64,000 nt of DNA, taken from assembly GCF_048403405.1 (NCBI RefSeq), contig NZ_CP183129.1; one strand, 5' to 3'. The stretch is from Escherichia coli (GTDB lineage: Bacteria > Pseudomonadota > Gammaproteobacteria > Enterobacterales > Enterobacteriaceae). Below are positions 57,401 through 60,400 of this stretch, one piece after another. The stretch's first letter is position 1; each line of letters opens with the position of its first letter. Made by a program: the position numbers.

Positions 57401-60400
57401 AATTTATCAATAATCGATTTGAACAGTTTCTCTTCTTCATGCTGCTCAGAAACATACCATTGCAGGAAATTAAATGTTGGGTAGTCCTGATTGGTCATTG
57501 CAGCATGAGCCAGTTCGTTAATTTTCTGGGTGATTAATTGTTCGTGTTTATAGGTTTCCTGGAATAATTCATCAAGTGAGGAATATTCAGCAAACGGAGA
57601 TTCAACGGTATTAATACGCGGTAAATTGCCGGTATCAGTCAGATAATCAAACAGACGCTGCATATGCGTCATCTCTTCCTGGGCGTGACGGCGCAGGAAC
57701 GCGGCAGCACCTTCGAAGGTATGATAGCTGCACCAGGCGCTCATTTGCTGATAAAGCAGTGAAGAGTACAGTTCCAGGTTCATCTGCTCATTAAGTTTTT
57801 CAATCATTTCTGGTTTCAGCATGATAGTGCTCCACAAAGGTTATATTTGTTGCTGTGGCGTCACTATAATTTGTTATTTTATTATTTGCAAAAGGTAAAA
57901 TATAAACTTCATTTATTAAAAATACGAATGGGAATAAAACGCATTACCGCTATTTATTTAATCAGCGAAGATCCCCCTCGCTGATTAAAACATTTAGAGA
58001 AAGACAGGGAAGGCGGAATGATGGCACTGATATGACAAAGTGAATTCCGTATTCAAACATAAGGAACCCGCAAAGAGGCTACAGTTGCCTACTGGCTGAC
58101 CAAAGGGGATAGCGTGGGTATAGCCTTCCTGCTGGCATGCGCGATCGGCGATCCCGCGACTGACATAACGATCGGTACGGGCATGCTGCAAAAAAGCCTG
58201 ATCATAAACCAACCGAACAATACCTGTTGCCGCGTCAACTTCGCCCACATGAGCCTGGCGAGTAACTGTGCACCCCGCCAGCGTTATTAATGAAAGAGTC
58301 AGAATCAGAAGTCTCATGGTCCAGCCAGAAGAGTAAAAGAAAGCAGTATTTTACGCGTTACAGCGCTGCGACAATGGCCGGAAAAGACGCCTGGCAGGCG
58401 CTATTTCTCGCCATCTGTATGTGTCAGAAAGGGGGGGGCTGCTTTTTGATTATCATTTTTATAACATTAAAGGGGTATTTATGTGATTTGCATCACATAA
58501 AGATTGATTTTTGTGATGGTTGTCATATTATAAGCGCAAAGACAATAACACCTGTATAACAAATGGTCGGAGTGCCGCGATGAAACTGCGCAAAATCCTG
58601 AAAAGTATGTTCAACAACTATTGCAAAACGTTCAAAGACGTACCACCAGGCAATATGTTCCGATAACAAAAAACCTGCTCCGGCAGGTTTTTTTGTGTCC
58701 TGGTGACGGTGGATGTGACTATCGCTGAAGATGTGAAGCCGCTACTATAACGGCTTTCAAAATGCTATCAGGAGTTTACGATGTCCCAGCCGCTGAATGC
58801 CGATCAGGAACTGGTTTCTGATGTGGTTGCTTGCCAGTTGGTTATCAAACAAATTCTGGATGTTCTCGATGTAATCGCGCCCGTTGAAGTTCGTGAAAAA
58901 ATGTCCAGCCAGCTGAAGAATATCGACTTTACTAACCATCCCGCCGCCGCAGACCCGGTCACCATGCGGGCAATCCAAAAAGCCATCGCGCTGATTGAAC
59001 TCAAGTTTACCCCACAGGGCGAATCCCATTAAAAAAACCGCTGCTTCAAAAAGATGAGGCAGCGGTTTCTCAAAAACTTCATCGGCGCAATGCATTAGCG
59101 CCGATGTATGATCAATGCAGCTGATGCGACACGACATTCAGAACATGTTGGTCGGTCTGCACAGGGCACATACCCGCAAGTTTCGCACTGCGCACTTCAT
59201 CAAGAATGGTTTGCAGCAACAGGCCATCATGCTGCTGTTCTTTTTCCAGATCGCGCAGGAAATTGACGGTTGAATCATCATTCAGTTCTTTCGCTTCATC
59301 GGCTAACTGCGCCAGCGTGCTTGAACGTTGCTCGTATTCTTCCATCGTTTTTTGGAACAGTTCTTCCAGAGAGTTCAGTTTTTCACCGGGAACATCAATG
59401 GCTTTAACGATGGGGGTAGCGCCGACACTCTTCATAAAGTTAAACATGCGCATCATTTGGGTCACGTTACTCTGTGCCTGGGCGCGAAGGAAAGTGGCGG
59501 TGCCGTTCAGACTCTGTTCAGAACACCAGTTACTCAGGTGAAGGTAGAGATTGGATGCGTAAAACTCGCGGTTCATTTGAGAGTTGAGTTTGAGAAGCAT
59601 TCCAGCGGTTGCCATACCTAAAATCCTTATATCCAGAAGTGGAGAGGTGCAAGATAAATCAAAACACCATAATTACTGTTTGCAGAATAATTCCTTTCTG
59701 CCGGTCCGAAATGTGATCGTGGAGTCAATTCTGACGATGATCTGAAATAAGAATAACGTCTGAGCGGGTATAAGAAAATGCTTAAATCATCAAGTTTATA
59801 TATTTTTACATTTCATTGATGAAATCAATGTAACTGCAATGAATTTTAATGATAGTGATTTTTGTATCTTGTTGATATTAATCGATGAATTTGAATTCAT
59901 GATGAAGTGATGATTTTATAAAACGTTTTTTCATTTTTGCGAGATGGCTCTCATTATACGTGTTCTGTTAATTAATGAGCACAGTGATAATTAATGGCGA
60001 AATGAATGACGCGCATTTTCCACATCTTTGAGTTGTGGTTATTACACCATTTCAAAAACTCAACGCCAGGTAATGCGGCCTGTTGACTGGTTAAAAAGAA
60101 GACATCCCGCATGGGTACCAAAGACAACAAGGATTTCCAGGCTAATCTTATGGATTAATCTGCTGTGCACTAGCCAATTTGTCAGACAAATTGGCTTTTC
60201 CTTATGTCTTTTCCCGCTAAATTTATGCACGTTCTCACTGTAATTCTGCGATGTGATATTGCTCTCCTATGGAGAATTAATTTCTCGCTAAAACTATGTC
60301 AACACAGTCACTTATCTTTTAGTTAAAAGGTAATGCTTTGTTTTCCGATTAATTTAACGAATGTCATTCGTTTTTGCCCTACACAAAACGACACTAAAGC

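What the first reader, a model, noticed from the sequence alone, without database searches (positions are those of the whole stretch)
60172..60196. Perfect 25-bp palindrome in the ftnB-araF intergenic region
AGCCAATTTGTC-A-GACAAATTGGCT has perfect 12-bp arms about 215 bp upstream of the araF start, in an 800-bp AT-rich intergenic region. It is not followed by a clear U-run and does not resemble AraC half-sites, so it may be an operator for a dimeric regulator or an RNA structure.
Basis: seen in the sequence. Interest (0 to 1): 0.3.

Follow-up and report, generated by a model that had tools for sequence, protein, structure and literature searches.

The report
Conserved dyad inside the araFGH promoter
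The perfect 25-bp palindrome is a rare E. coli variant of a short symmetric DNA motif that sits at a fixed spot between the two AraC-binding sites of the arabinose-transporter promoter in most enteric bacteria. It is most likely a docking site for a still unidentified regulator rather than an RNA structure.

Summary
In detail: AGCCAATTTGTC-A-GACAAATTGGCT lies at 60172-60196, 215 bp before the araF ATG, and is far beyond chance (expected about 0.03 per 64 kb).

The perfect form is a minority allele, exact in 32-33 of about 5,400 complete E. coli genomes. K-12-type genomes (about 89%) have 9-bp arms and a weak hairpin (-5.9 against -13.1 kcal/mol).

What is conserved is the inner dyad ATTTGTC-N-GACAAAT. 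In 80 Enterobacteriaceae species it sits at a fixed position, with its centre 27 bp from the centres of both flanking AraC-type half-sites and about -116 from the inferred araFGH start. Its information content equals that of the AraC half-sites, while the spacer around it is randomised. Changes within it are not compensatory.

TTGTC-N-GACAA is the layout footprinted for GntR/FadR-type repressors (AlkR, LhgR). No E. coli binder could be identified.

In Klebsiella and Pseudocitrobacter the same core has been extended to a GC-clamped hairpin plus T-run. There it evidently terminates an upstream DJ-1-family gene that lacks any other hairpin. E. coli has no such gene, and published Term-seq lists no 3' end at the palindrome in K-12.

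Verdict: an operator-like element of the araFGH promoter with an unknown binder. The perfect arms are lineage-specific. Interest is modest.

The parts
60172..60196 (.). Perfect 25-bp palindrome (12-bp arms, 1-nt centre). This is the lineage-specific allele.
   Evidence: It is exact in only 32-33 of about 5,400 E. coli genomes. The RNA hairpin is -13.1 kcal/mol, z = -2.9.
60177..60191 (.). Conserved dyad core ATTTGTC-N-GACAAAT, the putative operator.
   Evidence: Mean information is 1.22 bits per column, against 0.35-0.41 in the adjacent spacer and 1.13-1.46 in the AraC half-sites. TTGTCnGACAA is exact in 44 of 80 species and has at most 1 mismatch in 54 of 80. There is a PWM hit at this fixed position in 61 of 80 loci and only 1 other hit in about 400 kb.
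60128..60165 (-). Upstream pair of AraC-type half-sites, 21 bp apart: A at 60128-60144 (CAAGGA-N7-GCTA) and B at 60149-60165 (TATGGA-N7-GCTG). I read this pair as araFG2.
   Evidence: They are the reverse complement of the AraC consensus TAGC-N7-TCCATA. They are conserved in 80 species and score 8.7 and 21.9 on the PWM. The name araFG2 comes from my recollection of Hendrickson et al. 1990/1992, which I could not read here.
60203..60240 (-). Promoter-proximal pair of AraC-type half-sites: C at 60203-60219 (TATGTC-N7-GCTA) and D at 60224-60240 (TATGCA-N7-ACTG). I read this pair as araFG1.
   Evidence: with PWM scores 16.1 and 15.9. The B-to-C spacing is 54 bp in 68 species and 53 bp in 12.
60197..60206 (+). 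T-rich tail TTTCCTTATG after the stem. TTATG also forms the 5' flank of AraC half-site C.
   Evidence: K-12 has TTCCC here, with the SNP at 60199.
60252..60267 (.). CRP-type site TGTGA-N6-TCTCC.
   Evidence: It is highly conserved. It is centred about -40 from the inferred start. The assignment is inferred from the sequence and from my recollection of the literature.
60287..60301 (+). Inferred core promoter G-n-TAAAAC, with the araFGH transcription start at about 60299-60301.
   Evidence: It lies in a conserved block. The position is inferred from the CRP spacing and from my recollection of the Hendrickson 1992 abstract (weak -10, critical G just upstream). It has not been verified with data here.
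60412..61401 (+). araF coding sequence.

Best explanation
The palindrome is a perfected, lineage-restricted allele of a conserved 15-bp dyad, ATTTGTC-N-GACAAAT. This dyad is a third cis-element of the araFGH promoter. It sits midway between the two AraC sites, 27 bp from the centres of half-sites B and C and about -116 from the transcription start. Selection acts on the base sequence of the inner 5-7 bp of each arm, not on pairing. The selected function is therefore most likely binding of a dimeric, sequence-specific DNA-binding protein. The half-site layout TTGTC-N-GACAA is the one used by GntR/FadR (FCD)-type winged-helix repressors. A protein bound there would lie between the two AraC dimers, roughly on the opposite helical face, and could modulate AraC/CRP-dependent activation of the high-affinity arabinose transporter. 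The outer 5 bp of each arm are free to vary. In this strain they happen to be complementary: one A-to-C change at 60174 relative to the next commonest allele. That gives a -13 kcal/mol hairpin that is probably incidental in E. coli. In Klebsiella, Pseudocitrobacter and relatives the same core has been extended into a GC-clamped hairpin plus U-run that terminates the upstream gene. Shown here: existence, rarity of the perfect allele, conservation, fixed position, lack of compensatory change, and the complementary distribution of hairpins. Inferred: protein binding, the family of the binder and the regulatory effect.
For: (1) In 80 species the dyad columns carry 1.22-1.38 bits, equal to the AraC half-sites (1.13-1.46), while the spacer on either side carries 0.35-0.41 bits. 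(2) The position is fixed: B-to-C spacing is 54 bp in 68 of 80 species, and the dyad centre is 35 bp after the start of B and 19 bp before the start of C. (3) Within the inner 7 pairs almost no cell shows a change on both sides. Departures break pairing (TTTGTA/GATAAA, TTCATC/TACATA) rather than compensate. (4) The motif is specific: a PWM finds it at this position in 61 of 80 loci, once elsewhere in about 400 kb, and once in the 64-kb window. (5) The identical core is DNase-footprinted for the GntR/FCD repressors AlkR, 5'-ATTGTCAGACAAT-3' (PMC12042122), and LhgR, 5'-TTGTCTGACAA-3' (PMC8206213). E. coli DgoR uses the same geometry, TTGTA-G-TACAA (PMC11705089). (6) The perfect arms are dispensable. 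About 89% of E. coli genomes carry a 9-bp version whose RNA hairpin (-5.9 kcal/mol, z = -0.44) is no better than shuffles. (7) The element stays with araF where another gene separates araF from ftnB.
Against: No binder was identified. A PWM scan of 350 kb of MG1655 covering glcC, yieP, dgoR, glaR/csiR, lgoR, rspR, yidP and yjiR found no second site. McbR is reported to prefer AT-rich motifs. Text searches found no regulator other than AraC, CRP and sigma-S linked to araF. A position near -116 is unusual for a GntR-type repressor, which normally overlaps the core promoter. About a quarter of the species carry a conserved but non-palindromic variant (ATTCATCATACATAT) at the same place, which fits a dimeric operator poorly. 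Three Citrobacter species have lost the motif altogether while keeping the AraC sites. By my recollection, Hendrickson 1992 found that deleting the upstream AraC site region had only a slight effect on promoter activity.
Confidence: 0.45

Rival explanations
1. The element is an RNA hairpin or intrinsic terminator that works in this strain. The 11-12-bp stem followed by UUU(U)CCUUAU stops rightward transcription coming from the AT-rich ftnB-araF spacer, insulating the AraC-controlled promoter. The three SNPs at 60172, 60174 and 60199 were selected because they strengthen the stem and the U-run.
For: The scan calls it terminator-like. The hairpin is -13.1 kcal/mol with z = -2.9. Three of the five clustered SNPs relative to K-12 improve the stem or the U-run. 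The homologous element is clearly a terminator-type hairpin in Klebsiella, Pseudocitrobacter and relatives (-14 to -20 kcal/mol, 6-8 T). There the upstream DJ-1-family gene ends 6-9 nt before AraC half-site A with no other hairpin. Species with a 26-34-nt gap carry a separate GC hairpin and have a weak dyad hairpin.
Against: E. coli has no co-oriented upstream gene or gene remnant, and no sigma-70-like promoter was found in 59600-60450. Term-seq of MG1655 lists no 3' end at 19863xx. The stem is A+T-rich and only 3-4 U follow it. The allele is present in 0.6% of genomes. Across 80 species the outer five pairs are unpaired in 50-63% of sequences. A terminator role does not explain the sequence conservation of the inner arms.
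Confidence: 0.15
2. The dyad is an architectural or spacer element of the AraC nucleoprotein complex. Its conserved sequence gives a particular bendability or helical phasing between araFG2 and araFG1, or offers weak accessory contacts for AraC or CRP. No additional regulator is involved.
For: The dyad is exactly equidistant (27 bp) from the centres of half-sites B and C, and the spacing is invariant. It is found only in this promoter. No other binder could be found. It contains symmetric TG/CA steps, visible in the sequence.
Against: Base-specific conservation at 1.2-1.4 bits over 14 columns is much more than bendability usually requires. The AraC PWM score on it is at most 1.7, against 8.7-21.9 for the real sites. 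It does not fit TGTGA-N6-TCACA. Three Citrobacter species replaced it without changing the AraC sites or their spacing.
Confidence: 0.15
3. The palindrome is a neutral by-product of mutation with no function of its own. Quasi-palindrome 'correction' by template switching during replication perfected an imperfect inverted repeat, and the core is conserved for unrelated reasons.
For: The perfect allele differs from the 513-genome allele by a single base (A to C at 60174) that removes the only mismatch. Only about 2 of 75 possible substitutions in the 25 bp would do so. Five of the nine differences from K-12 in 431 bp cluster within 30 bp. Extended arms arose independently in several genera with different outer sequences.
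Against: This explains only the outer arms, not the conserved core. The polarity of the changes cannot be rooted, because other Escherichia species differ too much there. In the Klebsiella-type lineages the extension correlates with the absence of another hairpin, which points to selection rather than mutational bias.
Confidence: 0.12
4. It is an operator acting on the divergent ftnB gene, or a site for AraC or CRP themselves.
For: It lies in the shared ftnB-araF intergenic region.
Against: It lies 557 bp from the ftnB ATG. It is conserved next to araF in genera where a DJ-1-family gene separates it from ftnB. It fails the AraC PWM and does not match the CRP consensus.
Confidence: 0.04

Closest known systems
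Operators of GntR/FadR (FCD, VanR-type) repressors: P. aeruginosa AlkR (ATTGTCAGACAAT), P. putida LhgR (TTGTCTGACAA), E. coli DgoR (TTGTA-G-TACAA) and FadR (TGGTC-C-GACCA; the FadR sequence is from memory)
   Same: It is an odd-centred inverted repeat with 5-7-bp half-sites and conserved GT/AC, with the half-site centres about 8 bp apart. The 11-13-bp core is identical, or differs by 1 nt, from the footprinted AlkR and LhgR sites.
   Different: No cognate regulator is known or adjacent. The site lies about 116 bp upstream of the start, between activator sites, rather than over the -35/-10 region. None of the six FCD-type regulator loci of MG1655 that were scanned carries the motif. A quarter of the species have a non-symmetric variant.
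Rho-independent (intrinsic) terminators
   Same: There is a stem-loop followed by a T-run on the araF-sense strand. In Klebsiella, Pseudocitrobacter and relatives it has a GC clamp, 11-13 bp and 6-8 T, and sits behind a gene that has no other hairpin.
   Different: In E. coli there is no upstream transcription unit, the stem is A+T-rich and the U-run is short. The usual allele is not stable, and no 3' end was mapped in K-12.
araFGH promoter architecture (araFG1, araFG2 and CRP at about -41; Hendrickson et al. 1990, 1992; Johnson & Schleif 2000; recalled from memory, papers not held)
   Same: The palindrome lies inside this classical regulatory region, in the spacer between the two AraC sites. 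The half-sites found here fit TAGC-N7-TCCATA in inverted orientation with 21-bp repeats.
   Different: To my knowledge the dyad is not one of the described elements. It is neither an AraC nor a CRP site by sequence.
Quasi-palindrome template-switch mutation hotspots (Ripley model; E. coli thyA and lacZ reporters from the Lovett laboratory; from memory)
   Same: A single substitution converts an imperfect inverted repeat into a perfect one, and SNPs cluster around the repeat.
   Different: Only one or two of the five clustered SNPs improve pairing, the direction of change is unrooted, and no mechanistic evidence is available.
REP/BIME and other repeated extragenic palindromes
   Same: It is a short intergenic palindrome in an enterobacterial genome.
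   Different: It is single-copy. The 46-bp query finds one locus per genome, and the 'second place' is the same locus read on the other strand. Its sequence is unrelated to REP. A REP-like hairpin does occur nearby in Enterobacter and Citrobacter, but it is a different element.

Membership tests
GntR/FadR (FCD)-type operator | Inverted repeat with a TnGT-N(1-3)-ACnA core and short half-sites | tested here: met
   TTGTC-N-GACAA is exact in 44 of 80 species and identical to the footprinted AlkR and LhgR cores.
GntR/FadR (FCD)-type operator | Bound by a GntR-family dimer | not testable with these tools
   This needs EMSA, pull-down or ChIP. No report was found in text searches.
GntR/FadR (FCD)-type operator | The same motif occurs at the regulator's own locus or regulon | tested here: not met
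   A PWM scan of 350 kb of MG1655 with glcC, yieP, dgoR, glaR/csiR, lgoR, rspR, yidP and yjiR gave no promoter hit. No second site occurs in 80 araF loci. Only about 9% of the genome was scanned, so this test is weak.
GntR/FadR (FCD)-type operator | The operator overlaps or adjoins the core promoter it represses | tested here: not met
   The dyad centre is about 116 bp upstream of the inferred start, between the AraC sites. The start itself is inferred.
Intrinsic terminator | Stable G+C-containing stem-loop | tested here: inconclusive
   The window allele folds at -13.1 kcal/mol (z = -2.9) with 4 G-C pairs. The K-12 allele folds at -5.9 kcal/mol (z = -0.44).
Intrinsic terminator | U-run immediately 3' of the stem | tested here: inconclusive
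   The window has UUU-CC-UUAUG, and K-12 has UU-CCC. Klebsiella has 7-8 U.
Intrinsic terminator | Lies at the 3' end of a transcription unit, with a mapped 3' end | tested here: not met
   E. coli has no co-oriented upstream gene, gene remnant or promoter-like site. MG1655 Term-seq shows no 3' end at 19863xx. The feature is met in Klebsiella and Pseudocitrobacter by gene layout.
Intrinsic terminator / structured RNA | Compensatory covariation of the stem | tested here: not met
   The inner 7 pairs are conserved in sequence with almost no double changes. The outer 5 pairs are unpaired in 50-63% of 82 sequences. Overall 61.6% of cells are paired, against 58.6% in shuffles. Covariation of the outer stem is confined to the Klebsiella, Pseudocitrobacter and Raoultella-like lineages.
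AraC half-site | 17-bp TAGC-N7-TCCATA, usually as 21-bp direct repeats | tested here: not met
   A PWM built from 322 aligned half-sites scores at most 1.7 on any 17-mer overlapping the dyad, against 8.7-21.9 for sites A-D. Offsets of 29 and 25 bp from B and C do not fit the 21-bp register.
CRP site | TGTGA-N6-TCACA | tested here: not met
   By sequence inspection, TTGTC-N1-GACAA has the wrong spacing and half-site. A proper CRP-type site lies at 60252-60267.
Repeated extragenic palindromes (REP/BIME/ERIC) | Many dispersed copies per genome | tested here: not met
   There is one locus per genome in 5,409 genomes. The second BLAST place is the opposite strand of the same locus.
Any Rfam RNA family | Covariance-model match | tested here: not met
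   No match approaches a gathering score in 59500-60500.

The most novel reading that the evidence does not exclude
The araFGH promoter of Enterobacteriaceae, studied for 35 years as an AraC plus CRP promoter, carries a conserved operator for a third, still unknown regulator, probably a GntR/FadR-like dimer. That regulator would tie high-affinity arabinose uptake to another metabolic signal. The palindromic core of this operator has been repeatedly built out into an intrinsic terminator where an upstream gene needs one, so one DNA element would serve as a protein site and as the seed of an RNA hairpin.
Probability: 0.3. Interest if true: 0.55.

Novelty: new member of a known kind. Interest (0 to 1): 0.35.

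Why it matters
If a protein binds the dyad, the textbook arabinose regulon gains an unrecognised input at its high-affinity transporter, in a promoter widely used as a model of AraC/CRP cooperation. The comparative picture also gives a clean natural example of a short operator-like palindrome being extended into a terminator in some genera and left short in others. For the perfect palindrome as such the significance is small. It is a rare allele whose extra pairing has no demonstrated consequence.

Tried and rejected
- AraC half-site: rejected by the PWM.
- CRP, IHF, Fis, sigma-54, MarA-box, matS and H-NS motif look-alikes: compared by eye from memory. None is conserved outside E. coli, or the spacing is wrong.
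- Known RNA family: nothing in Rfam.
- Repeated element: it is single-copy.
- Remnant of the DJ-1-family gene in the E. coli spacer: tblastn and blastn found nothing.
- Identity of the binder, by PWM: MG1655 segments with glcC, yieP, dgoR, glaR/csiR, lgoR, rspR, yidP and yjiR (350 kb) gave only an rrn-leader look-alike and an intragenic hit.
- Identity of the binder, by literature: McbR is reported to prefer AT-rich sites, and the P. putida CsiR paper gave no usable motif. Text searches for araF with SELEX, ChIP-exo, GntR or ftnB found nothing relevant.
- Primary papers on the promoter (Hendrickson 1990/1992, Johnson & Schleif 2000, Stringer 2014) are not held. The names araFG1 and araFG2 and the start site therefore rest on my memory plus the conservation pattern.
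- The position of the second, sigma-S araF promoter of Maciag 2011 was not retrievable.
- TSS tables from Cappable-seq and Conway 2014 were not usable.
- Rooting the E. coli alleles with other Escherichia species failed because the outer-arm positions are saturated.
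Full report
OBSERVATION

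The window carries AGCCAATTTGTC-A-GACAAATTGGCT at 60172-60196, with perfect 12-bp arms and one central base. The araF CDS is 60412-61401 and ftnB is 59112-59615 on the minus strand. The element therefore ends 215 bp before the araF ATG, in a 796-bp spacer of 35% G+C. Markov simulations expect 0.03 such palindromes per 64 kb, and 6e-4 in the spacer; three occur in the window. The consensus scan lists it as terminator-like: 11 pairs, 4 G-C, tail TTTCCTTATG. As RNA it folds at -13.1 kcal/mol with z = -2.9.

HOW GENERAL IS THE PERFECT FORM?

The window is E. coli but not K-12. MG1655 annotates nothing between ftnB and araF. Its sequence at this position is CGACAATTTGTC-T-GACAAATTGGCT followed by TTCCC. 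Five of the nine differences from the window in 431 bp fall at 60170, 60172, 60174, 60184 and 60199.

A 46-bp query against 5,426 complete E. coli genomes gave these classes:
- exact match: 32-33 genomes, many of them porcine ETEC or O139:H1 strains;
- 1-2 mismatches: 513 genomes, mostly AGACAATTTGTC-A-..., which has one mismatch in the arm;
- K-12 type: about 4,819 genomes.

The K-12 hairpin is -5.9 kcal/mol (z = -0.44), no better than shuffled sequence. The element is single-copy. The 'second place' reported per genome is the same locus read on the other strand. It is not met for its core: AATTTGTC-N-GACAAATT was invariant in all E. coli alleles inspected.

COMPARATIVE ANATOMY

An AraF-based scan returned 80 loci from 80 species of Enterobacteriaceae plus Pantoea. 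Aligning 340 bp upstream of araF shows a conserved module.
- Four AraC-type half-sites lie in inverted orientation (TATGGA-N7-GCTA on the plus strand), as two 21-bp direct-repeat pairs. A is 60128-44 and B is 60149-65. C is 60203-19 and D is 60224-40.
- A CRP-type TGTGA-N6-TCTCC lies at 60252-67.
- A very conserved block ends in G-n-TAAAAC at 60287-94.

From memory of Hendrickson et al. (1990, 1992) and Johnson & Schleif (2000), which I could not read here, I assign A-B to araFG2, C-D to araFG1, CRP to about -41, and the start to about 60299-60301. A published reporter described as 'including all known regulatory elements' starts at window position about 60035, which is consistent with this.

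The palindrome occupies the spacer between B and C. Within that spacer, 15 columns (60177-60191, consensus ATTTGTC-N-GACAAAT) carry 1.22 bits per column. The AraC half-sites carry 1.13-1.46 bits. The rest of the spacer carries 0.35-0.41 bits. B-to-C spacing is 54 bp in 68 species and 53 bp in 12. The dyad centre is 27 bp from the centres of both B and C. TTGTCnGACAA is exact in 44 of 80 species. A PWM of the dyad hits this position in 61 of 80 loci, hits only once elsewhere in about 400 kb of those loci, and hits only once in the 64-kb window.

SEQUENCE OR STRUCTURE?

Counting the 12 pairs over 82 sequences shows two regimes. The inner seven pairs are nearly always the same pair, with almost no double changes. 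The outer five pairs are unpaired in 50-63% of sequences. Departures from the core break symmetry (TTTGTA...GATAAA; TTCATC...TACATA) rather than compensate. The constraint common to the family is therefore on bases, which points to a protein site.

Long arms (at least 11 bp) occur only in this E. coli allele, in Klebsiella (GCGCTAATTGTC), in Pseudocitrobacter (GGGCGAATTGTC), and in bulged or wobble form in two further loci. Each has a different outer sequence and a T-run.

These lineages share one property. A DJ-1/PfpI-family gene upstream of araF ends only 6-9 nt before half-site A, leaving no room for a hairpin, and the dyad hairpin is -14 to -20 kcal/mol. In about 38 other species the same gene ends 26-34 nt before A. 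There the gap holds a REP-like GC hairpin (-14 to -21 kcal/mol) and the dyad hairpin is 0 to -7 kcal/mol. The extended form is therefore best read as the terminator of that gene.

E. coli has neither the gene nor a remnant of it. It has no promoter-like site in the spacer. Published Term-seq of MG1655 lists no 3' end at 19863xx.

WHAT COULD BIND?

The dyad fails an AraC PWM, scoring at most 1.7 against 8.7-21.9 for sites A-D, and it does not fit the CRP consensus. A full-text search for the 11-mer found it as the DNase-footprinted operator of two GntR/FCD repressors: AlkR (ATTGTCAGACAAT) and LhgR (TTGTCTGACAA). E. coli DgoR uses the same geometry, TTGTA-G-TACAA. This is a resemblance of pattern, not proof of membership.

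Evidence against an easy assignment:
- A PWM scan of 350 kb of MG1655 with eight GntR-family loci gave no second site.
- McbR is reported to prefer AT-rich DNA.
- No paper links another regulator to araF.
- A position near -116 is atypical for such repressors.
- About a quarter of the species have a conserved non-symmetric variant (ATTCATCATACATAT).
- Three Citrobacter species lost the motif while keeping the AraC sites.

ORIGIN OF THE PERFECT ARMS

The window allele differs from the 513-genome allele only by A-to-C at 60174, which removes the single mismatch. This fits quasi-palindrome correction by template switching, selection for a hairpin, or chance. Outgroup sequences are too diverged at these positions to root the changes.

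VERDICT

Its perfect symmetry is a rare, probably incidental allele. The underlying element is a conserved, precisely placed dyad of the araFGH promoter, most likely an operator for an unidentified dimeric regulator (confidence 0.45). It has a demonstrated second life as a terminator stem in Klebsiella-type genera. It is a new member of a known kind and of modest interest (0.35).

Noticed in passing
window 60329-60345: The block GGTAATGCTTTGTTTT, about +30 to +47 of the inferred araF 5' UTR, is as conserved across 80 species as the AraC half-sites. Its function is unknown. It could relate to the second, sigma-S-dependent araF promoter reported in vitro by Maciag 2011, or to post-transcriptional control.
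   Followed up: no
window 61417-61439: This is the araF-araG intergenic hairpin CCCCTCTGCAT-g-ATGCAGAGGGG. Term-seq of MG1655 places a 3' end at 1985131(+), on the strand antisense to araFGH, where the hairpin is followed by AAUUUUUCC.
   Followed up: partly
window about 59641 and 59684, minus strand: Term-seq 3' ends lie 26 and 69 nt upstream of the ftnB ATG in MG1655 (1986899 and 1986856, + strand in K-12). This suggests premature 3' ends in the ftnB leader.
   Followed up: no
window 36802-36826 and 18393-18423: There are two further perfect palindromes: TTCCCGCTGTGG-g-CCACAGCGGGAA, between two minus-strand ORFs, and ACACCAGGCCGGAT-cac-ATCCGGCCTGGTGT, after plus-strand ORF 17201-18118. Neither is followed by a clear T-run.
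   Followed up: partly
window 60170-60199: Five of the nine substitutions between this strain and MG1655 in the 431 bp upstream of araF cluster within 30 bp around the palindrome, at 60170, 60172, 60174, 60184 and 60199.
   Followed up: partly
loci L011-L063 (for example L013 about 1660-1700, L012 about 1655-1700): Enterobacter, Citrobacter, Leclercia and others carry a REP-like GC hairpin (for example GCCGGACGCTAAGGCGTCCGG) in the 26-34 nt between the stop codon of a DJ-1/PfpI-family gene and AraC half-site A. Klebsiella and Pseudocitrobacter lack it.
   Followed up: yes
window 60297-60312: A CRP-like TGTCA-N6-TCACT sits right at the inferred araF transcription start. It is present in E. coli but not conserved in other genera.
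   Followed up: no
window 60263-60294: The most conserved block of the whole region (CTCTCCTATGGAGAATTAATTTCTCGCTAAAAC) contains TATGGA and GCTA separated by 13 rather than 7 bp. It is an AraC-box look-alike with the wrong spacing that overlaps the core promoter.
   Followed up: no
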